Shown: positions 32,138 through 63,683 of the stretch, piece after piece
Layout of the letters: each line of letters opens with the position of its first letter
Numbering within the stretch: the stretch's first letter is position 1
Program-made: the position numbers and the translations under genes
Notes under the pieces: model-generated
Seen by the model: the letters and a program-made list of their open reading frames with translations, nothing else
The model's database searches: none
What the model was told of the DNA's origin: nothing
IMG/VR virus record: IMGVR_UViG_3300010361_000005
Location: 1 to 63,683 of that record
Source: a virus
Strand: one strand, 5' to 3'
Length of the DNA: 63,683 bases

Positions 32138-33174
32138 TGCTCACGGCCAAGGTACCGGGCGTCCTCTGCATTGACCGCGTGGTTCCTGCTCTCACGATCA
32201 CCAGTCCTGCGGCTGGTAATGTAGCAGGTACAGCCACTATCGCTGCAACTGCTACGGACAATGACCAGATCGCTTCGGTGCAGTTTAGGATGGATGGAAA
32301 CATCATCGGTACGGTGACGGCTGCACCGTTCCAGATGAGTTATGACACACATGCTATCCTAAACGGTGCTCACACCATCACCGCTATTGCTACAGATCGC
32401 GTAGGCAACCAGACGACGAGGACGGTGGCCATCACTGTAGTGAACCAGCCTGCTGTGAACTTCTACAGCCCCGGCAACGGTGCAACTGTCAGCGGCAACA
32501 TGACGCTCGCCGCTACCGTGACGCAGTACAGCACCGGCGTCACCGTCTGGTTCTATGTGAACGGTAACAACATCTATGGCTACCGTAGTGGCAATGGCAC
32601 GTACTCCGTAGCCTACGACACGCATTACCTCGCGGTGGGCTGGAACACGATCACAGTCATCGCACAGGATGATGCGGGTCAGCAGACACGAATCGACTAC
32701 AGCGTGTACGTCAACAATAGCGCACCGGGCGCTGGCGTCACTCTGCTCGGCGACCATTGCTACTGGGACGGCGAAGGCTGGGACAACTACCGCCATAGCC
32801 CGCCTGCCTACGATGGCACGGGAGATACCTGGATCTGGTCAAACACCGGAGCGAAGTTCAACCCGGTTTACCTGCCGGGCAACCCTGATCCCACGCACTA
32901 CCAGATGCGGGTGTGGTGCCAGGTCAACCGTATTGAAGGAGGCTCAGATGGAAACGTCTGCTACCTTGACTTCCAGGTGGGAGGGGTTGTGGGATGGACA
33001 AACGTCTGGGCGAATGGTCCAGCCTACACAAACATCGGGCCGCTCTGGAATGTGAACGGTGGCAATGACTGTTATGCGAAGTGGTGGTGCAGCAGCCCGG
33101 GATGGAACACATGCTTCTGCATCGGCATTGGCTTCTACTACGACTTTGTAGTCAAGTCGGGTTACGCGAGTTAG
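32137..33174 (+). CDS. tail fibre/receptor-binding candidate with Ig-like repeats (345 aa)
   Basis: Two Big-like repeats (ITSPAAGNVAGTATIAATATDNDQIASVQF...; FYSPGNGATVSGNMTLAATVT...); Trp/Cys-rich C-terminal domain; last gene of the late operon. Confidence 0.55.
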   Translation: MLTAKVPGVLCIDRVVPALTITSPAAGNVAGTATIAATATDNDQIASVQFRMDGNIIGTVTAAPFQMSYDTHAILNGAHTITAIATDRVGNQTTRTVAITVVNQPAVNFYSPGNGATVSGNMTLAATVTQYSTGVTVWFYVNGNNIYGYRSGNGTYSVAYDTHYLAVGWNTITVIAQDDAGQQTRIDYSVYVNNSAPGAGVTLLGDHCYWDGEGWDNYRHSPPAYDGTGDTWIWSNTGAKFNPVYLPGNPDPTHYQMRVWCQVNRIEGGSDGNVCYLDFQVGGVVGWTNVWANGPAYTNIGPLWNVNGGNDCYAKWWCSSPGWNTCFCIGIGFYYDFVVKSGYAS

Positions 33175-40339: not shown

Positions 40340-41112
40340 GCGTGTACCCTCATGACTTCTTTCGCTCCCTTGTAGACGTCGTGAAGTAGAACGCCATGCT
40401 GCCACTTTGCCCATCTACCCAGACGGTGAACGCGAGGCCAGCAGTCGCAGGTATTGCTTACTGCCTTCACGCCCATCTTCCACGTTCGGTCGTTCGGGTC
40501 GAAGTCAGTTGGTTGAATGGAATACTCGATTGAGCAGATGCCGCTCAGGATAGACCAGCGGTACCAGGGGTCGTGCTCGTAGCCGTTGTAGATGACCAAG
40601 TCCTTCTCGGCATCCAGTGGCGGCGCTACGAGCGTGTGGATAAAGTAGGGTGAACTCTTGAAGTCGTGGTCTCCGTGACAGAGCAGCGGCTGCGGTAGCG
40701 TACTGATCACCACATCAAACTCGGCGACGATGTGGTGCAGGTTATGCAGGTTGCCGCTGAACTCAGTGGGAAGGATGATGCCCTCGTACTTCTCCCACAG
40801 CACGTCGTAGACGTTCTGCACGTTCCACGATGGATATGCCTGGAGGTACTGCTCCCACGCGGTATATCGGGCAGCGTCGCCGTACACCTTGTGCGCGTAT
40901 CCCTCAGCCGTGCCCAGCCGGACGTACTGAACATAGCTGTCCGGGTAGGTACCGTTGATGCCAGGGATGCCTTCGTGTAAGTACATGCTCCCTGGCAGGA
41001 CGCTCTTCTCCTTGATGCTGAAGATCGCCACGTATGCGTCGTCGAACTCATCGATCGCGTGGGCGGCGATGAGTCCCGCCGGGCCACAGCCTAGGATCGC
41101 GACGTTGATCAA
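40336..41112 (-). CDS. FAD/NAD(P)-binding Rossmann-fold protein (258 aa)
   Basis: TTG start 7 nt after CAGGGAGG; N-terminal dinucleotide-binding INVAILGCGPAGLIAAHA. Confidence 0.6.
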   Translation of the reverse strand: MINVAILGCGPAGLIAAHAIDEFDDAYVAIFSIKEKSVLPGSMYLHEGIPGINGTYPDSYVQYVRLGTAEGYAHKVYGDAARYTAWEQYLQAYPSWNVQNVYDVLWEKYEGIILPTEFSGNLHNLHHIVAEFDVVISTLPQPLLCHGDHDFKSSPYFIHTLVAPPLDAEKDLVIYNGYEHDPWYRWSILSGICSIEYSIQPTDFDPNDRTWKMGVKAVSNTCDCWPRVHRLGRWAKWQHGVLLHDVYKGAKEVMRVHA

Positions 41113-43937
41113 ATCTTTACCTCCCTGAGAAGTTCATGTAGTGTAGGCTCGACGTAGATGTCGCCGAGGTAGCGTCTTACCATGCGTGCTTCGTACAGCG
41201 TGTTGATGATGCCGTTCGCCTCATCGCGTGGGACGTTGAGTAGCTCCTCAAGATCCTGACGGCGGAACTTGCCCTGGTTCCTGAGGTGCTTCGCGAGTAG
41301 TGGGCGACCCTTCAGGTACTGTGCCATCTTCTCCTTGTTGCTCTGCGCCGCCTCACGGTCAGACAGTATCTCCTTGCTCCGCTCGCGGTACCCGAACGTA
41401 GGCATACCGTACAGAACGTTCATAAAGCGGCACGCCGCATTCACATGCTCCGGTCGTACGACCACCTTCTGGTACGTCGAGTCGGTGCTGAACAGACGCG
41501 CTGCTATCGCTGCCGCGATGCGCGCAATCTTGATCCTGATGTTCGCCGCCTGTACCAGTGGCGGATCCTCGATGTACCGCTTACCCATCTCATTTGCCAA
41601 CTCGAACACCCTCGTCTCAGCACGCTTCTGGAACAAGACCTGGTCTACGCTGCGGGTCCAGCACCACATTAGTAACTGGTGGCAAGCTTCGGATGTGTAC
41701 CGTAGCTCACCACCGCCCACCGGCTGGTTGATCTTCTCGGCAGGTACGTCAAACAGCGTACACGCCATCGCTAGGTCGAAGCGTGCTATGTCCTCTGCGT
41801 TACCGATCAGCGGCTTGATGGCGTCCACCCCGTAGGTGTAGTTGGCCATGGTAGCGTTGCGTGGGTTGCCTAGCCAGATAAGTCGCGTGCGAGCCCAGGT
41901 TGACTCTTGCTGAATCTTCACGAGCCTAGCCATACCCGACGAGCGGATGTCGCTCATCTGTGCTATCTCGTCGGGTGAGAGACCGCTGATCTCGTCCAGT
42001 ACTACCAGACGCTTGTCGTTGATCGGTACGACGCCCCATGTGACTGCCCAGTCCCGGCCACCCATTTGCTGGAGGCCACCCACCACGCCTGCGAAACTGG
42101 CAGCCTCACAGCTGATTAGCTCCCCGCCACCGTAGTGACGAATCAGCCGTTCGGCCGCCAGGCTTTTGCCGGTACGTGTGTCACCGACAATAAGGCTTTC
42201 TAGCCAGCCGCGATTCACTCGTTCGCCTGCGAAGTCAAAGCTGAGCAGGCTGTGGAACGTCAGGTCCATCAGCGCGTGCATCTCGGGACGACCCTGGATG
42301 TGCGTGACGTGATCGCTCAGAGCCTTGCTGATGTCGGCCAGCTTCTTGATCGGATCGCTTGGTGCTTGGAACTTCTTCATGAGACGAATCGCAGCGTCGC
42401 TCATGTCGAACTGATCAACGGCGGTCTCCATGTAACTCAGCTCATGTGCTAGGAACTCCTTGCGATGGTTGACCGGGTTCATGTGCAACGCACCGATAGC
42501 TGAGACTGTGTTGTTCGGCAGTAGGCTGTGATGATCTACCGATGTGATAGAGATGCTCTTGTACTGCGCGGCGTCCGGTGATGTGTCCGCACCGTCGGTG
42601 TAGTCAAGAGCGGGTCGCGCAAAGAATACATCTACCGAATGATGCTCGTCGTACTCATGCTGCAACCTACCGCACTTGCCACCAGGGATACCGTAGGCGT
42701 CGTTGATAACCTTCGCCACGTGTTCCTTCGTCGCTTCAATCATGCCGAGGATGAGCGGGTCATCTGACTCAATGAAGACTTCAGCTTGACCCTGGTTCGC
42801 GTTGAGTGGGCAGCCTTGGCACTTGGTACCGGCATCCTGGGTGCAGACTAGGCGTGCCTTACGCGGGATCAGGTAGCCAGGTTCCTTGCGCCCCTTCAGC
42901 GTGACGAGTACGCGCACAGGTATGCCCACTCGTTCATTGTCAAATGTGTCTAGCACGGTGACCGTGTCTACCGGCACGTCCTTCTGCCTGCGCCCGGCGC
43001 GTGCAGCCTTGCCAACATATTTCACAGCACCGCTGATCGCAGCCCTAAGAGCGGCAGGACCCTCGCCGGTGAGCAGATCGGTGATGTCCTTACCGTGCTT
43101 AGGCACCACGGGATATGGCAGCTTCACCAAATAGATAGAGTCAGTCACGGATGAGAGGCTACGGGCTATCTTGACATTGCCCTGTTGCCCCTCGTCGTCC
43201 ATGTCCTGCGCGATGTAGACCGTCTTACCCTTGAACAATGGCCCCCAGGTCATGTCCCATTGGTTCTCCCCGGCGGTACGGGTGATGGCACTGAACCCAT
43301 ACTGGATTGCGAGCATGGCGTCCCATTCACCCGCGCAGATGATGATCTCACCAGGTGCGCTCGCGAGCACGCTTAGAGGGTATAGGCGTGGCGGCTTGTT
43401 GTAACCGATCTCGCCCCAGATCTTGCGGCGACCCTCAGCAGGACGCGGATTGTAGTACCGGATGTTGACTAGCTCGCCATCCTCGTCATATACAGGGATG
43501 GTGTAGTTGGCGCTATCCTGTAGTCCGACCTTGAACTTCTTGAGCGTGGCATCAGTCAGACCACGGCGCTCGTGTAGCCACTGTAGCGCACCCGGATTTG
43601 ACATTAGCGCCGAGTGCCACCCGTCTACCATGGCCTGGCTGATGACACGCTGCTTCCTATCCGGTGGTTGCCCGTTGAGATTCGGAGACACACCGTTGCT
43701 TGATGCTGGCGTCCACTCGCTCCGCCTACGGATGAGGGCAGTTACTGGCATCCCACCGCACTTGAAGCAGTAGTAGACACCCTTGTCCACGTTGAGGCTC
43801 GCCGACCTACGCGAGTCGCCGTGGAGCGGACAGTGCATGTTCCATTCTCTGGTACCATCATCATTCCTGTGAGTTGGGGTCTCGCCCTCCAGGTACGGTT
43901 GTAAGACCTGTATTTGACGTGATGTTACTTTAGCCAT
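41109..43937 (-). CDS. primase (CHC2 zinc finger + Toprim) fused to MCM-like AAA+ helicase
   Basis: HCPLHGD...YYCFKCGG; Toprim IIICAGEWDAM and IAQDMDDEG; Cys cluster CTQDAGTKCQGCP; Walker A GDTRTGKS, Walker B LVVLDEISG. Start ambiguous (43937, 43967 or TTG 44000). Confidence 0.75.
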   Translation of the reverse strand: MAKVTSRQIQVLQPYLEGETPTHRNDDGTREWNMHCPLHGDSRRSASLNVDKGVYYCFKCGGMPVTALIRRRSEWTPASSNGVSPNLNGQPPDRKQRVISQAMVDGWHSALMSNPGALQWLHERRGLTDATLKKFKVGLQDSANYTIPVYDEDGELVNIRYYNPRPAEGRRKIWGEIGYNKPPRLYPLSVLASAPGEIIICAGEWDAMLAIQYGFSAITRTAGENQWDMTWGPLFKGKTVYIAQDMDDEGQQGNVKIARSLSSVTDSIYLVKLPYPVVPKHGKDITDLLTGEGPAALRAAISGAVKYVGKAARAGRRQKDVPVDTVTVLDTFDNERVGIPVRVLVTLKGRKEPGYLIPRKARLVCTQDAGTKCQGCPLNANQGQAEVFIESDDPLILGMIEATKEHVAKVINDAYGIPGGKCGRLQHEYDEHHSVDVFFARPALDYTDGADTSPDAAQYKSISITSVDHHSLLPNNTVSAIGALHMNPVNHRKEFLAHELSYMETAVDQFDMSDAAIRLMKKFQAPSDPIKKLADISKALSDHVTHIQGRPEMHALMDLTFHSLLSFDFAGERVNRGWLESLIVGDTRTGKSLAAERLIRHYGGGELISCEAASFAGVVGGLQQMGGRDWAVTWGVVPINDKRLVVLDEISGLSPDEIAQMSDIRSSGMARLVKIQQESTWARTRLIWLGNPRNATMANYTYGVDAIKPLIGNAEDIARFDLAMACTLFDVPAEKINQPVGGGELRYTSEACHQLLMWCWTRSVDQVLFQKRAETRVFELANEMGKRYIEDPPLVQAANIRIKIARIAAAIAARLFSTDSTYQKVVVRPEHVNAACRFMNVLYGMPTFGYRERSKEILSDREAAQSNKEKMAQYLKGRPLLAKHLRNQGKFRRQDLEELLNVPRDEANGIINTLYEARMVRRYLGDIYVEPTLHELLREVKI

Positions 43938-44241
43938 CAGAAGCGGAGGCTGCTGCAGGAGAAGCATTGGGTCTTGCCGGACTCTTCCCCAAGAACGCAA
44001 ACAGCACCGTCTTCATTCGGCTGAGCTCTATAGTGAACGACCACGGCTCTACCGTACAGCGACGGCTCTCGTAGTCGGCCAGTAGATCATAGAACTCCTC
44101 ATCACGGCTCTCTGGCGGCGTGAAGATCCACGCAACCTTTGTGCTGTTCAGCCTCTTCAGGTCATACTCAAACCCCGCGCAGGCGAGCGTCGTCGCGAGT
44201 GCGAGATCGTCCGTCCCAAATGCTTCTCCTGCTTCAGCCAT
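43930..44241 (-). CDS. hypothetical protein (103 aa)
   Basis: ATG 2 nt after upstream stop. Confidence 0.5.
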   Translation of the reverse strand: MAEAGEAFGTDDLALATTLACAGFEYDLKRLNSTKVAWIFTPPESRDEEFYDLLADYESRRCTVEPWSFTIELSRMKTVLFAFLGKSPARPNASPAAASASDG

Positions 44242-46101: not shown

Positions 46102-47181
46102 TCACCTACCCTCGTACACTTCGTGCTCGCTGTACGGGTCCCACTGCTTCGTTGTCTGCTCGAGAAATGCCAAGTAGTCGTTGCCGGTCTCGTGCAGCTC
46201 ACAGGCGTCGCGCATCGGGCACATCGGGCAGGTGAACATGCCCGGATTCTTCGTGAGCGGCAGCTGGCCGCGTCTGAATAGCTCAATGCGAGCGTAATCG
46301 ACCTGTGCGCGGTACTTGACCTCCTCGCGGTCGTGCTCATCCCGGAAGATCGGCATCCGCTTGAAGTACGGTGACGGCTGTTTCTTGCTGACCGTGCCAT
46401 CCTGGTTGAGATACATGCGCTTGCCGTCAATCAGCTTACTCGCTCGTTCATCAGGCATAGCCTTGCGCATGATGTTGTACATCATCCCGGCGAGCCGCTG
46501 TTTAGGGCCAAGGATCTTCTTCTCGCGCAAGAAGTCCACGCCATAGGACCAGTACGCTCCTGCCTGGTCATCCAGTACCAGATGGCTCCAGTTCTTGTCG
46601 CCGATGCCACCCGTAGTCTTGTGATCCGGGATCCAGATCTTCTTGTCGCGTCTGTCGCGCCAGAGACCATCAACGACGCCGGTGTAGTAGAACCATGGCT
46701 CTACCTTGCTATGCGGCCATTCAGCTTTCCGTACCTCATGCGTAACGAGTACGCGGAAAGGCATCTCGGTGGCGAGCACTTCCCAGCGGTCATCGTTGCC
46801 GTACTCGTCCACATAGTTGTTCATCATCGCGATGCCTAGCTCGTGGGCATTCTCCCAACGCTCGTCGTCACCCTCACCGACGCGCATGCCAAAGATCTCC
46901 TGGTTCTCCTTCATGTCGTCTTCGTAGGCTGCCTCAAACGCAACAGCGGGATGGGTGCCCCGCTTCACGCCGGGCACGTACCACGCAGCGAGTGCGCGGT
47001 GTACGAGGCTGCCGAAGCGCAGGGCAGGCGCATCAGTATGCGGCTTGAGCCGATCGTTGTACGTCCGGTCCCACAGCCACTCACACTTCTTCAGTGTGGT
47101 GCGCTCGCTGGTTCGCAACATAGGCAAACCGCGTCCGTTTGCTGCCCCACGCTTACCCGTCATGCTTGAACCCTCCACCAC
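46102..47181 (-). CDS. Cas4/RecB-family PD-(D/E)XK exonuclease with Fe-S cysteine cluster
   Basis: VVDGLW...IWIPDHKT nuclease motif; N-terminal KKCEW plus C-terminal CPMCPMRDAC (C-x2-C-x5-C). Confidence 0.7.
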   Translation of the reverse strand: MVEGSSMTGKRGAANGRGLPMLRTSERTTLKKCEWLWDRTYNDRLKPHTDAPALRFGSLVHRALAAWYVPGVKRGTHPAVAFEAAYEDDMKENQEIFGMRVGEGDDERWENAHELGIAMMNNYVDEYGNDDRWEVLATEMPFRVLVTHEVRKAEWPHSKVEPWFYYTGVVDGLWRDRRDKKIWIPDHKTTGGIGDKNWSHLVLDDQAGAYWSYGVDFLREKKILGPKQRLAGMMYNIMRKAMPDERASKLIDGKRMYLNQDGTVSKKQPSPYFKRMPIFRDEHDREEVKYRAQVDYARIELFRRGQLPLTKNPGMFTCPMCPMRDACELHETGNDYLAFLEQTTKQWDPYSEHEVYEGR

Positions 47182-47345
47182 TTGTAGGTACTAGACCGCC
47201 GGGGAACTGCCCCCGAACCGGGAACCCTACCGTACCCCAATCCCCGGCGCTAGTCTAAAAAGTCCGCTATTTACGGACGAATACTGCGACACCTATTCCT
47301 GTCGCAAATATCCTTCAAGTTATTCACAAGTGCCACAAGCCTCTC

Positions 47346-47361
47346 GCGCGAGCGCTCGCGC
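47346..47361. promoter_or_regulatory. 16-bp perfect palindrome GCGCGAGCGCTCGCGC
   Basis: Read directly; in the inter-operon region. Confidence 0.5.
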
Positions 47362-47400
47362 TCGGGCCGCCAGTTGCCCTAGTCACCTTTCCTCACGATC

Positions 47401-47414
47401 GCGCGTACACGCGC
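47401..47414. promoter_or_regulatory. GCGCGTACACGCGC box (exact)
   Basis: Exact 14-mer shared with 59777 and 59828. Confidence 0.6.
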
Positions 47415-47424
47415 TCGCGCGCTG

Positions 47425-47454
47425 AAGATCTTAGAGACTAAGAACTAAGATCTT
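47425..47454. promoter_or_regulatory. inverted repeat AAGATCTTAG-N10-CTAAGATCTT
   Basis: 10-bp perfect arms; overlaps a TTGACA hexamer at 47453-47458. Confidence 0.5.
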
Positions 47455-47482
47455 GACACAGTTTGTTCGCTCGCGCGGTCGA

Positions 47483-47496
47483 GCGCTTACACGCGC
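47483..47496. promoter_or_regulatory. GCGCTTACACGCGC box (13/14)
   Basis: One mismatch to the 14-mer. Confidence 0.45.
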
Positions 47497-47572
47497 GATC
47501 GAGTCCTACGCGCGAGAGCGATCCTGCCTCGCGAGCGCGAGCAAAGGAAAAGCCCTGGTTCCAAGCGATTCT

Positions 47573-47606
47573 GGATTTGTGGCTATCTTTGGATTTCCTT
47601 GGATTT
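47573..47606. repeat. three GGATTT (= AAATCC) repeats at 47573, 47591 and 47601
   Basis: Read directly in an AT-rich stretch. Confidence 0.5.
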
Positions 47607-47664
47607 ATTTGCGATTATGCTTATCCGTCGTTCTCTCAGAGACGATAGTCTCAAATCGAGCCAC

Positions 47665-47703
47665 AAAAAAAAACGGCTCCCAGCACTACCCATGCTGGGA
47701 GCC
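47665..47703 (-). terminator. rho-independent terminator of the early leftward operon
   Basis: 11-bp perfect stem GGCTCCCAGCA/TGCTGGGAGCC with a 7-nt loop, followed on the minus strand by nine T. Confidence 0.85.
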
Positions 47704-47949
47704 GTATTCGTCGAGGATTCTTTGATCGAAGCTGAACCAGTCGTCTTCAGCTGGCTTTGGCTCCGATTGAATCCTCGGTTTTCGTGCCGTCTTCGGTCGT
47801 GCAGGACGCTTTGGTGGCTCTTCCGGGACGATTTTCTCGTCTGGATGCGCCTTGAAAAGCGTCTTCACGACGTTGAGACACGGAATCAGGAAGATAATCA
47901 CGAGTGGAAAATACACGGCCTCTTCAAGACCGTGCATGACCGTGTTCAC
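47686..47949 (-). CDS. membrane protein with Pro/Lys-rich tail (87 aa)
   Basis: ATGA overlap; TM segment AVYFPLVIIFLIPCLNVV. Confidence 0.5.
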   Translation of the reverse strand: MNTVMHGLEEAVYFPLVIIFLIPCLNVVKTLFKAHPDEKIVPEEPPKRPARPKTARKPRIQSEPKPAEDDWFSFDQRILDEYGSQHG

Positions 47950-58400: not shown

Positions 58401-58913
58401 GCTAACCGTAGGGAGGGAGGTTTTGGCTTCCTAGGTGCCCGTGTCCGCGTCTCGTTCCGCGTCGCTGCGCCTGGCCTACTCCGGTTCGCTCGCGTGCCCG
58501 CCGGTTCCTTGAAGCCTCAGCTGCCTACGCTGAGCCGTACTCTGCCGGTGGCGTTCGCGCCTCGTGACGTCGCCCAAATGCCGCCGCGTCCGTAGGTCGC
58601 AAACCCTTTCGCCAGGATCGCCGCGACGCGGTCACCGCGTCGTAGCTACCTAGTTGGGGCTGCGCGCCTAGTAACCCCGTTGCTAACCCTGGTCATCCCC
58701 CTGGCGCGCGAGCCGAGGGACCATCACGCCTACTAGGGTCAGTCCGTGCCTTGAAATCGCACACGCGTCGCCCGTTGGTGAGGGTGCGACTTTGTGGTAC
58801 GCGTCGCCCCTACGATTGGTCGTTCCGCCGGAGCAGCACCCCTTTGGCCCGTTGGGGCGGGTCGCCCGCTCGCGCGGTCCCACCGTCCGGTGCCTTCAAA
58901 CTTCGGCTCCGGC

Positions 58914-58934
58914 CTGGGCGCCTCACGCGCCCAG
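58914..58934. other. 8-bp stem hairpin CTGGGCGC-CTCAC-GCGCCCAG
   Basis: Read directly in the ORF-free region. Confidence 0.5.
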
Positions 58935-58957
58935 CCCCTACATAGTAGCGCGAACCG

Positions 58958-58976
58958 GACCCCGCGGGGTCGTTTT
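58958..58976 (+). terminator. terminator-like palindrome GACCCCGCGGGGTC followed by GTTTT
   Basis: 14-bp perfect palindrome plus a short T run on the plus strand only. Confidence 0.35.
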
Positions 58977-59029
58977 CGTCGGATTTGGGACATAACTTTT
59001 TCAGCGCCGTTGGGCCTTGACCCATAGGC

Positions 59030-59167
59030 TTGAGGCTATACCTGGGCGCGTCGCTACGGTGGCGTGTACCGTTGGCGCTACGCGACCCATCCGCTAGGCT
59101 GGTTTGAGGCTACCTGGCCCACCTGGACCATGACGGCTGGCCGTACGGAGCGTGGTGGCTTGAGGCT
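59030..59167. repeat. three TTGAGGCT repeats (59030, 59104, 59160)
   Basis: GGCTTGAGGCT / GGTTTGAGGCT / GGCTTGAGGCT read directly. Confidence 0.55.
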
Positions 59168-59222
59168 CGGCTAGGCGGTACGCTCCCCGGCGGCTCGGAT
59201 TTGAGCGCTGAATTGTGGCACC

Positions 59223-59713
59223 GAATCCCTGTGGAATGGTGGGTGGCTGAGTTCTTTGAGGATTGAGGTTGCGAATCCGCTGGTAAATCGGAACTTCTAA
59301 GGCTCAAAGCCGAGGGAATGCCTTCGCAAAACGTGGGGAAAAGGCCGCAGAATCCCATGTGTCTATTCTCTCCTGATTTGGCTACGACAAATCCGAATTC
59401 TTTGTGGTCACACATGCCATTTCGCATGGCGATTGTCGCAAAAAACTAAACACAAAGGAATCCGAAAGTGCGGGTGCAACGCACAAAAATTGCATTCAGA
59501 GATAGTTTCATGGCAAATAGCCGATTTGATCCGAATTATTTCAGTATTTTCGGCCATTTGAATCCGACAAATCCGACAAAAAAGCTTCTGTACTCCTTAG
59601 CTCAGTCATCAAATCGTATTTGTCTCTAAAAAAAAACTCGAAACGCAGGTTCTAGCAAATCCATAATCGCATGGAATCCAGATTCACCATTTCTATAGAA
59701 AGTAAAGAATCCC
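59223..59713. repeat. iteron-like cluster of about 12 RAATCCN repeats in AT-rich DNA
   Basis: GAATCC-type cores at 59223, 59273, 59350, 59389, 59457, 59528, 59561, 59570, 59657, 59673 and 59707, plus AAATCG variants. Confidence 0.6.
59561..59578. repeat. tandem AATCCGACA x2
   Basis: Two directly abutting 9-mers followed by an A run. Confidence 0.7.
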
Positions 59714-59776
59714 ATTCCATACACAAATCTCTCGTTCCCGTCGAGTCCAGATCGTCCTCGCGCGTAGGACTTGCGA

Positions 59777-59790
59777 GCGCGTACACGCGC
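59777..59790. promoter_or_regulatory. GCGCGTACACGCGC box (exact)
   Basis: Exact 14-mer. Confidence 0.6.
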
Positions 59791-59827
59791 GGGAGGAGAG
59801 CGATTTTCGCAAATGGGTCCAACGTAT

Positions 59828-59841
59828 GCGCGTACACGCGC
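59828..59841. promoter_or_regulatory. GCGCGTACACGCGC box (exact)
   Basis: Exact 14-mer, 51 bp from the copy at 59777. Confidence 0.6.
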
Positions 59842-60073
59842 TCGAGAGAGGAAATCTGCACTAGGCCGCCGCCATCGCACTTTCAGCCCACAAAGACGCT
59901 CGAATGCCCACAAAAGAAACTCCGACCGACCCGACTAGCTTTTCACCGCCGGATAAGGTAGACTAAGCCGTCGGTGTTCGGGGTGCTACCCGCTCGGGTC
60001 CTGGTAGTGTCCCTGAGCGGTAGCATCCCGGCACTAACGGCACCAAGCGACACTACCAACAGGGGACGGGGAT

Positions 60074-60364
60074 ATGAGTCAAGAAGAACCACTGCCGATC
60101 ACGCTGCCTGATCTCGAACGGCTGCTTTACGAAACTCGCGCGATCGTTCACCAGGAAGGACTGGGGACATGGTTTGAGCGGCGCGGCATGGAGTACGAGA
60201 CCATGTATCCGTTCTACATGGGCCTAATGGGCGCGGCCACTGAACACATCTACAGGCTGCAGCGACACGGCGATGACGGCACCGATGCGATCTTCGAGCT
60301 CATCCTCACAACTTTCCTGCTCGGATGGATGATGAAGGAACAATACGGGAGGGGTAGACCGTGA
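60074..60364 (+). CDS. hypothetical protein (96 aa)
   Basis: ATG after the GACACTACCAACAGGGGACGGGGAT leader. Confidence 0.55.
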   Translation: MSQEEPLPITLPDLERLLYETRAIVHQEGLGTWFERRGMEYETMYPFYMGLMGAATEHIYRLQRHGDDGTDAIFELILTTFLLGWMMKEQYGRGRP

Positions 60365-60621
60365 CATTGCACGTCAGGCTGATTCACACCCAGGAAAACG
60401 ACAAACAAGAGCAAGAAGCCTTGCTGTGGACAGACCACACTTGCGAGAAGCTTCAGGTTGCCCTGCCCTTCGGGCAGCTTCTCACGGTTCTTGATACGGG
60501 CGAGGACATCGCCGTCGTCATTCACGAGGCAGACCAGGATGAGAACACCGAACCCGCCGAGTGCGTGTATTCGTGTGTTCACAACGGAACTCCCAACAAT
60601 ATTCACGAACGGGGGGAATGA
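60361..60621 (+). CDS. hypothetical acidic protein (86 aa)
   Basis: GTGA overlap. Confidence 0.45.
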   Translation: MTLHVRLIHTQENDKQEQEALLWTDHTCEKLQVALPFGQLLTVLDTGEDIAVVIHEADQDENTEPAECVYSCVHNGTPNNIHERGE

Positions 60622-60648
60622 CATCAAACAACAAACGAAGGAGATGAG

Positions 60649-62862
60649 TTGAAAGCAAAGCAATACCTTCCGCTGGCGCTGATGCTTGCGGCGCTGATGG
60701 CGCTCACAGGTGTCATCACGGGTGTAGCATCCGCCGACGTGACAGGTGCAACCGCGACAAAGAACTGCCAGCAGGGTCCTTTTTCTCTGGGGCAGTCCAT
60801 TCACTGTACCTTTACGGTACAGAACGCCGGTGCATTTCCGGCGACGATCGACGTTCTGACGGAGACAAGCCCGCTTCCGAGCGGACCTACCACTCCGATC
60901 ACGTGCGTCGGTACCGACAGCGTGACGTACCACACAGGTGACACGCTCCCTCCGGGTGTGACCTGTTCCGGTGCGTTCGACGTTCCTGTCGGGAACGATC
61001 CAGCGTCATGTGGAACGCTACTGCGGGATAGGGTCGAGATCGACCTGAGCTATCCGCAGTTCGATCCGCCGCTGACCGCTGGTGCGTTTGCGACAGCAAC
61101 AACGGCCATCGTTTGTCCGGCGCAAGCGACCGTGGCGAAGACGGCTGACACGCTGAGCAAGCCGACCGACCAGGTGACGTATACGGTCACAGTCACAAAC
61201 CCGAATGTTGTGGCTGAGGACGTCACGTCCGTCAACGACACGCTCGTCGGGGACATCACGAGTCACTTCGCGTCGCCGCTTGCGGCCGGAGCGTCGGAGA
61301 GCTACACGTACCAGCGCACGGTGCTGGCGGGTGATCCTAACCCGCTGGTCAACACCGTGACGGCTGTACTCAGCGATGAGGGTACATCAGCGACGGCAAC
61401 GGCTTCGGCCAGCACCAAGCTGTTCTACCCAAGTGTTCACGTGACCAAGACGTGCGCACCAAGTCCCATCGAGGTTGGCGGGACGCTTCTCTGCACCATC
61501 ACGGTCACAAACACGAGCACCGGAACAACTCCTCCGGCGCTTCAACTCGACTCGCAGACTGATACACGGGCTGGGAATCTGGACTTGGTTGGAAATCCGC
61601 AGGTTGTTTCCAACAATTGTCTTGCCTCGCTCGCGACCGGCGGTAGCTGCACCATCGTTACCACCGATCACGTCGGCCTGTCCGATCTGCCTGGTCCGGT
61701 CGTGGACACCGCAACGGTGCATTACCATCCGCTCGGGTTCACGAACAACATCACGGACACGGCTGCTGCATCGGTGCCGGTGACTACGACAGCGACGATG
61801 ACGCTGACGAAGTCCTGTTCGCCGGCAGTCGAGAATGTTGGCGACACGACGACGTACACCTTCGTGATCACAAATACGGGTGACGTGCCGCTGACTCGCC
61901 AGAGCGTGAACGACACGCTTCTTGGTAACATCGGTGCTGACTTCCCCGCGACTCTTGCTCCTGGGGATTCGGCAACGGTGACCGAGACGCGGGTTGTCCT
62001 CGCGGGTGACCCGTCGCCGCTTCCGAACACGGTCACCAGCGTTTACGGCAACTCCGTGGTCAACGTGACGATCACGAAGTCGGCATCGTGTTCTATCGTT
62101 ATCAAGCATCCGTCCATGACGCTGACCAAGGCCTGCAATCCGCCGTCGGCTCATGTCGGCGATACGGTGCAGTACGGCTACACGGTCACCAACACGGGCG
62201 ATGTTACTCTGAACCTGAAGAGTGCCACCGATACGCTGCTCGGCGATCTGACCGCTGACTTCCCGGCAACGCTCGCGCCTGGACAGTCGGTGTCGTTCTC
62301 TGTGCCACGAGTAATCCTACAGAGCGACCCGAACCCACTACCGAACACGGTCACGACTGTGTACCAGGAAGAGGGCTTCACGGTCACTCTGACGAAGTCG
62401 GCTAGCTGCTCAGTGACGATCATTCCGCCCGGTACGGTGAAGGTGACGATCGGGTTCTGGAAGACGCATGCTCCGAAGTCCTGCAAGCAGGGCAACGGCA
62501 AGCAGGCGGATGCACTGACCCCGGCTCTCGGTTCGGGATTCCCGCTCGGTAGCGGTTACACGCTAACCGATCCGTGCGTGGCGGTGCAGCTGCTGAGCAA
62601 GGCTGTCCTGGGTTCGGGTGATCCCATCGGGAACATGCTTGCCCAGATGGTCGGTGCGGAACTGAACATCAATGCCGGCGGGACAACGAGCGGCAGTTGC
62701 TCGTTCATCAACGGCGCTATTACCGATGCCAACACGCTTCTGTCCGCGATCAACTTCAACGGCACCAGCTACACCAAGCCGCTGACGACCGCGCAGAAGA
62801 ACGAGGCATCTACGCTGGAAGGTCTGTTCTCAAGCTACAACAACGACAGCACGACCTGCTAG
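60649..62862 (+). CDS. secreted repeat protein (DUF11-type beta-domain repeats plus Cys-containing C-terminal domain, 737 aa)
   Basis: TTG start 5 nt after AAGGAG; signal peptide MKAKQYLPLALMLAALMALTGVITGVASA; five repeats incl. near-duplicate units LTKSCSPAVENVGDTTTYTFVITNTGDVPL... and LTKACNPPSAHVGDTVQYGYTVTNTGDVTL... Confidence 0.75.
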   Translation: MKAKQYLPLALMLAALMALTGVITGVASADVTGATATKNCQQGPFSLGQSIHCTFTVQNAGAFPATIDVLTETSPLPSGPTTPITCVGTDSVTYHTGDTLPPGVTCSGAFDVPVGNDPASCGTLLRDRVEIDLSYPQFDPPLTAGAFATATTAIVCPAQATVAKTADTLSKPTDQVTYTVTVTNPNVVAEDVTSVNDTLVGDITSHFASPLAAGASESYTYQRTVLAGDPNPLVNTVTAVLSDEGTSATATASASTKLFYPSVHVTKTCAPSPIEVGGTLLCTITVTNTSTGTTPPALQLDSQTDTRAGNLDLVGNPQVVSNNCLASLATGGSCTIVTTDHVGLSDLPGPVVDTATVHYHPLGFTNNITDTAAASVPVTTTATMTLTKSCSPAVENVGDTTTYTFVITNTGDVPLTRQSVNDTLLGNIGADFPATLAPGDSATVTETRVVLAGDPSPLPNTVTSVYGNSVVNVTITKSASCSIVIKHPSMTLTKACNPPSAHVGDTVQYGYTVTNTGDVTLNLKSATDTLLGDLTADFPATLAPGQSVSFSVPRVILQSDPNPLPNTVTTVYQEEGFTVTLTKSASCSVTIIPPGTVKVTIGFWKTHAPKSCKQGNGKQADALTPALGSGFPLGSGYTLTDPCVAVQLLSKAVLGSGDPIGNMLAQMVGAELNINAGGTTSGSCSFINGAITDANTLLSAINFNGTSYTKPLTTAQKNEASTLEGLFSSYNNDSTTC

Positions 62863-63133: not shown

Positions 63134-63345
63134 TGTTCAAGCTGACTGGTTCATCCGGCTACCGCCGCAGCGGAGGCAGCAGCACCGTCGCTCGCGTCAG
63201 TGCCAGCCGCCTCAATCGCGTCGCGTTCGCTCCTGTGCCCACACGCGGGGCATGGGTGCCCGAGACGATGCAGGAACAGGGGCAGGATTCCAGTACTGCC
63301 CGCACGGGTGGTCTGGAGAAGGTCCTGCGCTTCAACGGGATGTAG
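63133..63345 (+). CDS. hypothetical protein (70 aa)
   Basis: ATG in a TGATG junction; Ser/Gly/Arg-rich N-terminus. Confidence 0.4.
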   Translation: MFKLTGSSGYRRSGGSSTVARVSASRLNRVAFAPVPTRGAWVPETMQEQGQDSSTARTGGLEKVLRFNGM

Positions 63346-63555: not shown

Positions 63556-63680
63556 TGCCTGCAAGATCGCAAGCGCAGCGACGCTGGGCCTACGGCGTGA
63601 AGGGAAAAGCGTGGGCAAAGCGTCACCACTTCAACAACAAGGGCAAGTTGCCCAAGCGTGTGAAGCGGAAGCGTAAGTGA
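63555..63680 (+). CDS. basic small protein (41 aa, DUF3008-like)
   Basis: MPARSQAQRRWAYGVKGKAWAKRHHFNNKGKLPKRVKRKRK; its last 120 nt are duplicated at 1-120; stop overlaps the GTG of the RuvC-like gene. Confidence 0.5.
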   Translation: MPARSQAQRRWAYGVKGKAWAKRHHFNNKGKLPKRVKRKRK

Positions 63681-63683
63681 ACA
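63561..63683. repeat. Terminal direct repeat copy 2
   Basis: Exact copy of 1-123. Confidence 0.95.

What the first reader, a model, noticed from the sequence alone, without database searches (positions are those of the whole stretch)
59223..59713. AT-rich iteron-like cluster (about 12 RAATCCN repeats) in the ORF-free region: candidate replication origin or partition/packaging site
Within about 500 bp that is visibly AT-richer than the rest of the genome, the core (A/G)AATCC(G/C/A) recurs at 59223, 59273, 59350, 59389, 59457, 59528, 59561, 59570, 59657, 59673 and 59707.
- AATCCGACA AATCCGACA is an abutting tandem followed by an A run.
- GAATCCAGATTC is palindromic.
- Short hairpins lie between the repeats (GCCAT-TTCGC-ATGGC, GTGCG-N7-CGCAC).
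- An A9 run lies at 59628-59637.

Three further copies on the opposite strand (GGATTT at 47573, 47591, 47601) sit in the other large intergenic region. Iterons next to an easily melted stretch are the classical origin layout. The phage encodes its own primase-MCM and DnaE but no recognisable initiator, so the repeat-binding protein is unknown.
Basis: partly seen in the sequence, partly recalled or inferred. Interest (0 to 1): 0.62.

Follow-up and report, generated by a model that had tools for sequence, protein, structure and literature searches.

The report
AATCC repeat array in phage control region
The main gene-free stretch of this uncultured actinobacterial phage holds a real, conserved, one-stranded cluster of the short word AATCC in the easiest-to-melt DNA of the genome; it is most likely where a protein assembles to start DNA copying, but a DNA-packaging or gene-control role is not excluded.

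Summary
Ten AATCC words lie on the + strand within 59224-59712, against 1.6 expected from local shuffles (0 of 5000 reach 10). This segment is also the lowest-G+C DNA of the 63.7-kb genome.

The cluster recurs, on the same strand and at the same place, in four related uncultured phages. Two sites keep their position and the others turn over. More distant relatives carry different short repeats at the same spot.

The DNA is non-coding, matches no Rfam family, and shows no strand-specific fold. The repeats are short (5-7 bp core), irregularly spaced and not helically phased, so they are not textbook iterons.

My best reading, at about 0.4, is a replication-origin region:
- The phage has no classical initiator but encodes a primase-MCM helicase with a predicted C-terminal winged helix.
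- Cultured phages with the homologous protein carry inverted CCACAAT arrays plus an AT-rich patch just upstream of that gene.
- This lineage has no such gap, and CCACAAT-type words are enriched in its main gap instead.

Two rivals remain:
- A packaging site or genome terminus. Contigs of at least five relatives end within about 70 nt of one invariant block at 59445-59489.
- An upstream array for the divergent promoters. The right-hand end of the cluster has a paralogue in the second gap.

The parts
59224..59712 (+). Array of ten AATCC words on the + strand. Starts: 59224, 59274, 59351, 59390, 59459, 59561, 59570, 59658, 59675, 59708. Extended consensus: c-R-AATCC-G/C-A.
   Evidence: 10 observed against 1.64 expected locally, 0 of 5000 shuffles
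58981..59264 (-). Three inverted copies (GGATT at 58981, 59197, 59260) at the left edge of the array.
59330..59740 (.). AT-rich valley, the global G+C minimum of the genome (33-45%); A6 at 59579-59584 and A9 at 59629-59637. Candidate unwinding element.
59561..59584 (+). Abutting 9-bp tandem AATCCGACA AATCCGACA followed by A6, at the edge of the lowest-G+C stretch. Not kept in the closest relative L005.
59345..59357 (+). Positionally conserved site CCGCAGAATCCCA (CGC-a-R-AATCCC-c-A in five genomes).
59445..59489 (+). Block A: ACTAA-N7-GGAATCCGAAAGTGCGGGTGCAACGCAC-A5, the most conserved non-coding block of the region. It contains one AATCC and the small hairpin GTGCG-N7-CGCAC, and is unique in the genome. 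Contig ends of relatives cluster here.
59280..59293 (+). Block 0: CTGGTAAATCGGAA (CCTGGTAAwTCGG), conserved at the left border of the AT-rich part; present in 2-3 copies in the L004/L033/L035 lineages.
59687..59707 (+). Block B: CCATTTCTATAGAAAGTAAAG, conserved in W, L005, L006 and L030. Possible promoter element for the rightward cassette.
59656..59841 (+). Segment with a collinear paralogue in the second gap: CAAATCCATAATCGCATGGAA (59656-59676), CTCGCGCGTAGGACT (59757-59771), and two GCGCGTACACGCGC boxes (59777-59790, 59828-59841).
59887..59913 (+). Two GCCCACAAA words 20 bp apart (CCCACAA at 59887 and 59907). With ATTGTGG at 59213-59219 (- strand), these are three of the genome's nine CCCACAA/CCACAAT words.
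47573..47620 (-). Second gap, read on the - strand after a strong terminator (47664-47706): CATAATCGCA, three AAATCC, then CAAATCCAGAATCGCTTGGAA. Present only in W and its closest relative G005.
41109..44000 (-). Primase-MCM gene: DnaG-type zinc ribbon and Toprim, an MCM AAA+ domain, and a predicted C-terminal winged helix. Candidate protein that is loaded at, or recognises, the region.

Best explanation
The AATCC array is a multi-site protein-binding platform in the phage's main non-coding control region. Most likely it marks the replication origin.

**Proposed mechanism (inferred, not shown)**
1. A phage protein binds the asymmetric AATCC(G/C)A words as monomers along about 500 bp. The candidate is the primase-MCM helicase, through its C-terminal winged helix, or a small early protein acting for it.
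2. This nucleoprotein complex, possibly helped by transcription from the adjacent divergent promoters, opens the 33-37% G+C stretch at 59490-59720.
3. The primase-MCM, which in its studied Bacillus prophage homologue prefers single-stranded and bubble DNA, loads there and primes synthesis by the phage DnaE.

**What is shown**
- The array is real, strand-biased and conserved as an array with turnover of sites.
- It is non-coding and coincides with the genome's melting minimum.

**What is inferred**
- The identity of the binding protein.
- That replication starts here.
For: 1. The cluster is far above chance locally and is independently enriched in relatives. It lies on the same strand and in the same position in L005, L006, L030 and L031.
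2. Two sites are positionally conserved while the others turn over. The 3' flank shifts from CCG in the window to CCC in L006 and L030. More distant lineages carry other repeats at the same place: GCGTAATTG x4 in L035; GATTAGCAGGGACTTT x2 and TTGTGGG x4 in L003. This is the pattern expected of sites co-evolving with a cognate protein.
3. The segment is the global G+C minimum at three scales.
4. No Rep/O/DnaA-type initiator, integrase or Par protein turned up in Pfam or PHROGs scans of about 45 proteins.
5. The primase-MCM has a confidently modelled C-terminal winged-helix topology, with weak structural matches to MCM4/6 C-termini and to MarR/CRP/ArsR wHTH proteins.
6. Cultured phages with the homologous protein (34% identity) keep a 430-500-bp gap just upstream of that gene. 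These are the Microbacterium cluster EF phages Karate and Sparcetus and Arthrobacter phage Wollypog. The gap holds inverted arrays of CCACAAT(C) units next to a local G+C minimum.
7. The window and a 59%-identical relative have no gap there.
8. CCCACAA/CCACAAT words are about 7-fold enriched in the main gaps of the family: 19 in 14.7 kb against 28 in 157 kb. They include an 18-bp palindrome ATTGTGGGTGCCCACAAT beside Block A in L049.
9. The window's 9-bp tandem unit AATCCG-ACA resembles the EF unit AATCCCCACA.
10. BcMCM, the studied prophage homologue, prefers ssDNA and bubble substrates (PMC3273815), which fits loading at an opened AT-rich element.
Against: - The repeats have only a 5-7-bp core, irregular spacing and no helical phasing, unlike classical iterons.
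- The tandem pair next to the AT-rich core is not kept in the closest relative.
- A position-weight matrix built from the EF iterons is only about 3.5-fold enriched in the window's gap and does not hit the AATCC sites themselves.
- GC skew gives no support.
- The winged helix is a normal part of MCM architecture, and the Foldseek matches are not significant (best E = 0.013).
- The right-hand end of the array belongs to a duplicated promoter/operator-like module.
- Contig ends of relatives cluster at Block A, which suggests a terminus or a mosaic boundary rather than an origin.
- There are no replication data of any kind.
Confidence: 0.4

Rival explanations
1. Packaging site or genome terminus. 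The physical ends of the packaged DNA (cos, a short direct terminal repeat, or a pac cut) lie at or just right of Block A (59445-59489). The flanking AATCC words are the binding sites of the small terminase, comparable to lambda cosB R-sites or the hexamers that flank the P1 pac cut.
For: - Contigs of relatives that come from the early-gene side stop at the Block A core GTGCGGGTGC at +0 (L033), about -6 (L049), +10 (L003) and +41 (L035). Two others stop before it (G001 at -170, L053). None runs beyond +41, although the gap continues for about 600 nt.
- A contig from the other side starts at -30 (L037).
- Five of eight ends in a 1.3-1.7-kb gap falling within about 80 nt is unlikely by chance. 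A rough post-hoc binomial gives about 2e-5.
- Block A is a GC-rich 10-mer in AT-rich DNA and is the best-conserved non-coding block.
- Five samples of the L030-type phage are identical across the region, which argues against strain variation there.
- In many actinobacteriophages (L5-type layout; my own knowledge) the ends lie between a leftward early arm and a rightward structural arm, as here.
- The nearest cultured TerL relatives include Arthrobacter cluster AQ phages with 1.5-kb terminal repeats.
Against: - The ends are ragged over about 70 nt and overlap from both sides, which a boundary between conserved and hypervariable DNA in mixed populations would also give. The 59525-59640 stretch is very divergent even between W and L005.
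- Eight contigs run straight through the region.
- Other TerL relatives look circularly permuted: Streptomyces phage Stuff has gene 1 at base 1, and cluster EF is permuted (PMC7302621).
- The site is 4-6 kb upstream of the terminase genes.
- Copies of the motif also occur in the 47.5-kb gap.
- The window's own 123-bp terminal repeat lies inside a small ORF and is an assembly overlap, so it says nothing about the ends.
Confidence: 0.22
2. Transcription-control array. The AATCC words are binding sites of an activator, repressor or architectural protein, or act as an UP-like element, upstream of the divergent early (leftward) and cassette/late (rightward) promoters. They have no direct role in replication.
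For: - The array lies between divergent operons.
- Its right-hand end (59656-59841) is collinear with a paralogous module in the second gap: CAAATCCAnAATCGCwTGGAA, then CTCGCGCGTAGGACT, then two palindromic boxes. In both places the module is oriented with the downstream genes, and in the second gap it directly follows a terminator.
- Two weak sigma-70-like matches lie inside the array.
- Block B is conserved and resembles a TATAGA-type element that also precedes the primase gene in phage Karate.
Against: - The palindromic GCGCGTACACGCGC boxes already look like the phage's operators, and they are kept in relatives that lack AATCC in the second gap.
- Ten asymmetric sites over 500 bp is far more than known phage promoters use.
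- The promoter-like hexamers are not conserved in L005 or L006.
- No DNA-binding regulator was recognised among the early proteins.
Confidence: 0.25
3. A non-coding RNA or an RNA-level signal. The A+C-rich + strand would be read as an unstructured, Rho- or protein-binding RNA, or the - strand as a GGAUU-rich leader of the early operon.
For: - The strand asymmetry (A and C rich on the + strand) is kept in relatives.
- The Block A hairpin changes from G-C to G-U on the + strand in L005 and L006.
Against: - No Rfam family matches.
- Fold z-scores are the same on both strands, -2.5 and -2.6.
- With three sequences there is almost no covariation.
- No conserved promoter or terminator brackets the region.
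Confidence: 0.06
4. A partition (centromere-like) site of a plasmid prophage.
For: Direct repeats in one orientation resemble parC or tubC arrays.
Against: No ParA/ParB/ParM/TubZ, integrase or repressor was found. The cultured relatives are lytic (PMC7302621).
Confidence: 0.02

Closest known systems
Satellite phage P4 ori and crr (type I octamer iterons bound by the alpha primase-helicase through a C-terminal winged helix) and SaPI/PICI origins (short iterons flanking an AT-rich core, with a self-loading Rep helicase). Cited from my own knowledge.
   Same: Short (6-8 bp) repeats in number. The initiator is itself a primase and/or helicase with a winged-helix DNA-binding end, so no separate initiator is needed. 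A second, smaller repeat cluster lies kilobases away, as crr does in P4.
   Different: The core here is only 5-7 bp, the spacing is irregular over 500 bp, nearly all copies share one orientation, and the helicase is MCM-type rather than SF3/D5-type. Binding has not been tested. The second cluster is lineage-specific and part of a promoter-like module.
Polyomavirus (SV40) core origin in the non-coding control region. Cited from my own knowledge.
   Same: A pentanucleotide word (GAGGC there, AATCC here), an A/T tract and GC-rich repeats or palindromes sit together between divergent early and late units. The initiator there is the replicative AAA+ helicase.
   Different: SV40 has four precisely arranged pentamers as inverted pairs within 27 bp. 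Here there are ten or more loosely spaced direct copies. This is an analogy of layout only, with no homology.
Unannotated inverted CCACAAT(C) arrays upstream of the primase-MCM gene of Microbacterium cluster EF phages (Karate 32254-32365, Sparcetus) and Arthrobacter phage Wollypog.
   Same: The primase-MCM is homologous (34% identity). Short repeats lie next to a local G+C minimum. The unit AATCCCCACA resembles the window's AATCCG-ACA, and CCACAAT-type words are enriched in the window's gap.
   Different: The EF arrays are compact: 3+4 units in 32-nt inverted arms, 46 nt apart, with 9-10-bp periodicity, directly beside the gene. The window's array is dispersed, direct and 15 kb from the gene. 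The EF arrays are not experimentally characterised either; PMC7302621 does not mention them.
Terminase recognition regions: lambda cosB (R1-R3 plus an IHF site) and P1 pac (seven hexamers flanking the cut). Cited from my own knowledge.
   Same: Several short asymmetric words flank a conserved central block in bendable AT-rich DNA. Contig ends of relatives pile up at that block.
   Different: The site is not adjacent to the terminase genes, the termini are not demonstrated, and the number and spread of repeats are larger.
Lactococcus phage c2 origin: a non-coding AT-rich region between the divergent early and late gene clusters, with origin activity tied to early transcription. T4 oriF/oriG: a promoter plus a downstream unwinding element. 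Cited from my own knowledge.
   Same: The location between divergent early and late units, the AT-rich DNA, and promoters close by.
   Different: Those origins do not rely on a dense pentamer array. There is no evidence of transcription here.

Membership tests
Iteron-type replication origin (lambda ori, P1 oriR, iteron plasmids, P4 ori, SaPI ori) | Several copies of one defined repeat that binds the initiator | tested here: inconclusive
   Ten same-strand AATCC copies, highly non-random, but only 5-7 bp are shared. Binding is untested.
Iteron-type replication origin (lambda ori, P1 oriR, iteron plasmids, P4 ori, SaPI ori) | Regular or helically phased spacing of the repeats | tested here: not met
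   Spacings range from 9 to 102 bp. Rayleigh test at 10.5 bp gives P = 0.09; the best period in the 9-12 bp range gives P = 0.24.
Iteron-type replication origin (lambda ori, P1 oriR, iteron plasmids, P4 ori, SaPI ori) | An adjacent, easily melted AT-rich element | tested here: met
   Global G+C minimum of the genome at 100-, 200- and 400-bp scales.
Iteron-type replication origin (lambda ori, P1 oriR, iteron plasmids, P4 ori, SaPI ori) | A cognate initiator encoded by the element | tested here: inconclusive
   No Rep/O/DnaA-like protein was found. A primase-MCM with a predicted winged helix is present, but the link to the repeats is inferred.
Iteron-type replication origin (lambda ori, P1 oriR, iteron plasmids, P4 ori, SaPI ori) | Replication starts there (marker frequency, 2D gels, autonomous replication) | not testable with these tools
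GC skew is uninformative.
cos/pac packaging site | Physical DNA ends or the first headful cut map to the site | tested here: inconclusive
   Five contig ends of relatives fall within about 80 nt of Block A, but eight contigs run through and no reads could be laid.
cos/pac packaging site | Position next to or inside the small terminase gene | tested here: not met
   TerL is at 2015-3553. The array lies 4-6 kb upstream, behind a three-gene cassette.
Sigma-70-type promoter/operator region | Conserved -35/-10 hexamers | tested here: inconclusive
   Two 9-of-12 matches that are not conserved in L005 or L006. The conserved Blocks A and B fit no clear consensus.
Sigma-70-type promoter/operator region | Palindromic operators | tested here: not met
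   The AATCC words are asymmetric. The palindromic boxes lie outside the cluster, at 59777 and 59828.
Partition site (parS/parC/tubC) | Partner partition genes in the same genome | tested here: not met
   No Par, ParM or TubZ family among the roughly 45 proteins scanned.
Known RNA family (Rfam 15) or tRNA | A match at the gathering threshold | tested here: not met
   No Rfam match and no tRNA in the whole window.

The most novel reading that the evidence does not exclude
A bacteriophage origin built like a polyomavirus control region. Pentanucleotide words spread through the non-coding region between the early and late units would be read directly by the winged-helix end of a self-loading primase-MCM helicase. 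That helicase would then melt the neighbouring A/T tract and prime its own DnaE, with no separate initiator. The same recognition system, diverged to CCACAAT units, would define the still unmapped origins of the cultured Microbacterium cluster EF and Arthrobacter Wollypog phages.
Probability: 0.15. Interest if true: 0.7.

Novelty: new member of a known kind. Interest (0 to 1): 0.42.

Why it matters
Phage-encoded MCM helicases have been studied biochemically (BcMCM), but how they are brought to a start site is unknown. No origin has been mapped for any phage of this replication type.

This work defines a conserved, testable DNA element in a widespread group of uncultured actinobacterial phages. 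One relative occurs in about 150 public assembly blocks. In passing it also turned up compact inverted repeat arrays next to the homologous gene in cultured, laboratory-tractable phages (Microbacterium foliorum and Arthrobacter globiformis hosts), where the idea can be tested directly.

If the element turns out to be the packaging site instead, it would fix the genome ends for this phage group. Either way it is the main cis-acting control region of the genome. As it stands, it is one more candidate origin or control region without functional data.

Tried and rejected
- **Nucleotide search of GenBank phages** with the 1.6-kb region: no match.
- **Rfam and tRNA scans:** nothing.
- **Coding potential:** tblastx conservation is equal in many frames and on both strands, and W and L005 differ by indels, so I rejected a small gene.
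- **Structured RNA:** equal z-scores on both strands and almost no covariation.
- **Helical phasing of the repeats:** not significant.
- **GC skew as an origin pointer:** it follows gene orientation, is flat over 57-61.5 kb, and has its minimum at 63244.
- **DnaA box (TTATCCACA / TTGTCCACA):** AATCC(G/C)ACA needs an extra base to align, so I rejected it by inspection.
- **GANTC (CcrM) sites:** only the GAATCC copies fit, and the relatives mostly carry AAATCC.
- **tRNA T-arm or attP reading:** no TTCGAATCC context and no integrase.
- **Metagenome scan with the 108-aa early protein family:** it was swamped by low-complexity patterns and gave one useless hit.
- **Homologue search with the 96-aa cassette protein:** only the close relative.
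- **Window's 123-bp terminal repeat as a physical end:** it lies inside a 41-codon ORF, so it is an assembly overlap.
- **L039 as a contig end:** I first read it as one, and one search showed that it is an internal slice, so I dropped it.
- **Phyletic profiling of early genes against presence of the AATCC array:** the three families shared only by W, G005 and L030 (57165-57578, 55538-55876, 55308-55571) simply track relatedness, and none looks like a known DNA binder.
- **TerL-based inference of the packaging mode:** the nearest cultured relatives include both terminal-repeat and apparently permuted genomes.
Full report
**What the window is**

The window is a complete IMG/VR virus record of 63,683 bp. 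Its 123-bp terminal repeat lies inside a 41-codon basic ORF, so it is an assembly overlap of a circular or permuted assembly and not a physical end.

The gene layout is as follows:
- + strand, 1-33 kb: terminase, Mu-type portal and protease, tail genes.
- - strand, 33-58.35 kb: ThyX, HU-like, HNH, DnaE, a 963-aa primase-MCM, AAA_24 RecA-like, PD-(D/E)XK nuclease, SNF2 helicase, and many small early genes.
- 58.35-60.07 kb: an ORF-free gap.
- + strand, 60074-62862: a three-gene cassette.

No integrase, repressor, Par protein or classical initiator was found. The nearest cultured relatives by primase-MCM (34% identity) are the lytic Microbacterium cluster EF phages and Arthrobacter phage Wollypog (PMC7302621). 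The host is therefore probably an actinobacterium.

Yes. RAATCC is not over-represented genome-wide: 45 found against 43 expected. But ten copies lie on the + strand within 59224-59712, and three inverted copies lie at the left edge.

Dinucleotide-preserving shuffles of the same 561 bp give 1.64 +/- 1.2 copies, and none of 5000 shuffles reaches ten. The segment is the lowest-G+C DNA of the genome at 100-, 200- and 400-bp scales. The second-lowest is the 47.55-kb gap, which holds the three opposite-strand copies.

The tandem AATCCGACAAATCCGACA plus A6, the two small hairpins, the GAATC-CA-GATTC inverted repeat and the A9 run are all present as described. The extended consensus is weak: c-R-AATCC-G/C-A. 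Spacing is irregular and not helically phased. In the strict sense these are therefore not iterons.

**What it is not**

- It is not coding. Conservation against a relative appears in many frames on both strands, and close relatives differ by indels.
- It matches no Rfam family or tRNA.
- RNA fold z-scores are the same on both strands (-2.5 and -2.6). This fits DNA-level inverted repeats rather than a strand-specific RNA.
- Cumulative GC skew follows gene orientation, is flat from 57 to 61.5 kb and bottoms at 63244, so it says nothing about an origin.

**Comparative evidence**

I fetched the homologous gap from relatives by four routes: flanking proteins, homologues of the DUF2786 early protein, conserved DNA words, and the records behind these loci.

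The architecture is shared across the family, in this order: first early gene; 0.6-0.9 kb of very GC-rich ORF-free DNA; an AT-rich part; GC-rich palindromic boxes; a leader hairpin; rightward genes.

AATCC enrichment across relatives:
- Within the AT-rich part, W, L005, L006, L030 and, more weakly, L031 all carry 5-13 AATCC words on the same strand. That is 5.6-7.5 per kb against 0.6-1.6 per kb in their flanks.
- L006 and L005 are independently significant against local shuffles.

Conservation of individual sites:
- Two sites keep their position in all five genomes: CGC-a-R-AATCCC-c-A at 59345-59357, and the GGAATCC inside Block A.
- The other sites come and go. Even the tandem pair is absent from L005, which is 87% identical overall.
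- The flank drifts from AATCCG in W to AATCCC in L006 and L030.

Other lineages carry different short repeats at the same place:
- GCGTAATTG x4 in L035.
- CCTGGTAAT x2-3 in L004, L033 and L035.
- GATTAGCAGGGACTTT x2 and TTGTGGG x4 in L003.

An array that is kept while its members turn over, and whose word changes between lineages, is what one expects of binding sites that co-evolve with a protein encoded by the phage.

**The conserved skeleton**

An alignment of five genomes defines these blocks:
- Block 0: CCTGGTAAwTCGG, at 59280-59293.
- Block A: ACTAA-N7-GGAATCCGAAAGTGCGGGTGC, at 59445-59489. It is more conserved than the neighbouring proteins and is unique in the genome.
- Block B: CATTTCTAnnrAwAGTAAAG, at 59687-59707.

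The AATCC array straddles Block A. The deepest A/T valley (59490-59720) starts directly to its right.

**Evidence pointing to transcription control**

Read on the - strand, the second gap (47181-47686) starts with a strong terminator. It then carries CATAATCGCA, three AAATCC, CAAATCCAGAATCGCTTGGAA (19 of 21 identical to 59656-59676), CTCGCGCGTAGGACT (15 of 15 identical to 59757-59771) and two GCGCGTACACGCGC-type boxes. These are collinear with 59656-59841 and oriented with the downstream genes.

However, the AATCC copies in the second gap exist only in W and its closest relative. G001 and G002 keep the boxes without them. The sigma-70-like matches inside the array are weak and are not conserved.

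**Evidence pointing to an origin**

- The primase-MCM (MCM P-loop family PF00493 in its homologues) is the only candidate for a loading or initiating protein.
- An AlphaFold2 model of its last 224 residues (mean pLDDT 80.8; over 90 in the last domain) shows AAA+ lid helices followed by an H-beta-H-H-beta-beta winged helix.
- Foldseek gives only weak matches, best E = 0.013, to MCM4/6 C-termini and to MarR/CRP/ArsR regulators.
- In Karate, Sparcetus and Wollypog the homologous gene is preceded by a 430-500-bp gap. The gap contains compact inverted arrays of CCACAAT(C) units beside a local G+C minimum. In Karate these are 32-nt arms, 88% complementary, 46 nt apart, with three to four 9-10-bp units each.
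- The paper on these phages does not describe the arrays.
- W and a 59%-identical relative have no gap at that gene.
- In the W family the words CCCACAA/CCACAAT are about seven-fold enriched in the main gap: 19 in 14.7 kb against 28 in 157 kb. Examples are ATTGTGG at 59213, GCCCACAAA at 59887 and 59907, a TTGTGGG cluster in L003, and the palindrome ATTGTGGGTGCCCACAAT next to Block A in L049.
- The window's 9-bp tandem unit AATCCG-ACA is one gap and one mismatch away from the EF unit AATCCCCACA.
- The studied prophage homologue BcMCM prefers ssDNA and bubble substrates (PMC3273815), which fits loading at an opened A/T element.

Against this, a matrix built from the EF units is only about 3.5-fold enriched in the window's gap and does not score the AATCC sites. 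The enrichment statistics are not corrected for composition or for the relatedness of the genomes.

**Evidence pointing to a terminus or packaging site**

Many fragmentary contigs of relatives end inside this gap, and they do so at one place.
- From the early-gene side, contigs stop at the Block A core at +0 (L033), about -6 (L049), +10 (L003) and +41 (L035), or earlier (G001 at -170, L053). None continues beyond +41.
- From the other side, one contig starts at -30 (L037) and one at -480 (L006).

Five of eight ends within about 80 nt of a 1.3-1.7-kb gap is very unlikely by chance. The window was chosen after seeing the data, so this figure is only indicative.

Two explanations fit:
- A physical discontinuity such as cos, a short terminal repeat or a pac cut. 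This would suit the L5-like layout, in which the ends lie between a leftward early arm and a rightward structural arm.
- A branch in assembly graphs at the border between an invariant block and the hypervariable DNA to its right.

Five samples of the L030-type phage are identical here, which speaks somewhat against strain variation. Eight contigs run through the site. The nearest cultured TerL relatives include both 1.5-kb terminal-repeat genomes (Arthrobacter cluster AQ; PMC5794937, PMC5513430) and apparently permuted ones.

**Verdict**

Its function is not established.

| Reading | Probability |
|---|---|
| Origin-type nucleoprotein platform next to the unwinding element | about 0.4 |
| Transcription-control array | about 0.25 |
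| Packaging site or terminus | about 0.22 |
| RNA signal | about 0.06 |
| Partition site | about 0.02 |

The first three readings are not mutually exclusive in a compact phage control region. In kind it is a new member of the familiar class 'short repeats plus AT-rich DNA in the main non-coding region of a phage'. Its interest lies in the link to phage MCM helicases and in the testable arrays found in cultured relatives.

Noticed in passing
L018 7255-7366 (Karate record 32254-32365); L020 2105-2225 (Sparcetus); L019 1757-1865 (Wollypog): Cultured phages with the homologous primase-MCM have a 430-500-bp gap directly upstream of that gene. The gap holds compact inverted arrays of CCACAAT(C) units beside a local G+C minimum. 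These are unannotated and are not mentioned in the cluster EF paper. They are good candidate origins that could be tested at the bench.
   Followed up: partly
window 59445-59489 (Block A); ends of L033, L049, L003, L035, L037: Contigs of at least five related phages from different samples end within about 70 nt of this invariant block. This is either a physical DNA end or a conserved/hypervariable boundary that breaks assemblies.
   Followed up: partly
window 47390-47620 (- strand) versus 59656-59841 (+ strand): The two largest gaps share a collinear module: CAAATCCAnAATCGCwTGGAA, then CTCGCGCGTAGGACT, then two GCGCGTACACGCGC-type boxes. Each is oriented with its downstream genes, which looks like a duplicated promoter/operator unit.
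   Followed up: partly
window 1-123 = 63561-63683: The 123-bp direct terminal repeat of the record lies inside a 41-codon ORF for a very basic peptide (MPARSQAQRRWAYGVKGK...). It is therefore an assembly overlap and not a packaging end.
   Followed up: yes
window 58430-59200 and the homologous stretch in L003, L004, L030, L031, L033, L035, L049, L053: 0.6-0.9 kb of ORF-free DNA at 65-78% G+C is kept between the first early gene and the AT-rich part in every relative, but its sequence is not conserved between lineages. A terminator-like hairpin sits on the + strand at 58958-58971. Its function is unexplained.
   Followed up: no
L049 about 40-60 (reverse strand), L031 3180-3230, L006 311-337, L030 about 2880-2910: Block A is often preceded by an inverted pair of CCCACAAT-like words. 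Examples are ATTGTGGGTGCCCACAAT in L049, CCAATCCCCACGCCCGGATTGTGG in L031, and AATCCCCAAATCC-N5-GATTGTGG in L006 and L030.
   Followed up: partly
L004 about 5120-5160, L003 about 270-300, L035 about 500-530, L049, L053: A hairpin CCCGCTATTTGCGGG flanked by GAAAA/AATTT is conserved at the GC-rich/AT-rich border in the lineages that lack the AATCC array. The window has GCCATTTCGCATGGC in a similar place.
   Followed up: no
window 41112-41300 (- strand): The last roughly 65 residues of the primase-MCM are predicted with pLDDT above 90 to form a winged helix, as in archaeal and eukaryotic MCM C-termini.
   Followed up: partly
L030 (ENA ERZ27255615 contig k141_2853517) and loci L037-L040: The relative carrying DUF2786 protein P0125 is indexed in 148 blocks of the public assembly collection, 96 of them with contigs of 50 kb or more. 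Its control region is identical in five samples. It is an abundant, well-sampled member of this phage group and is suited to read-level work.
   Followed up: no
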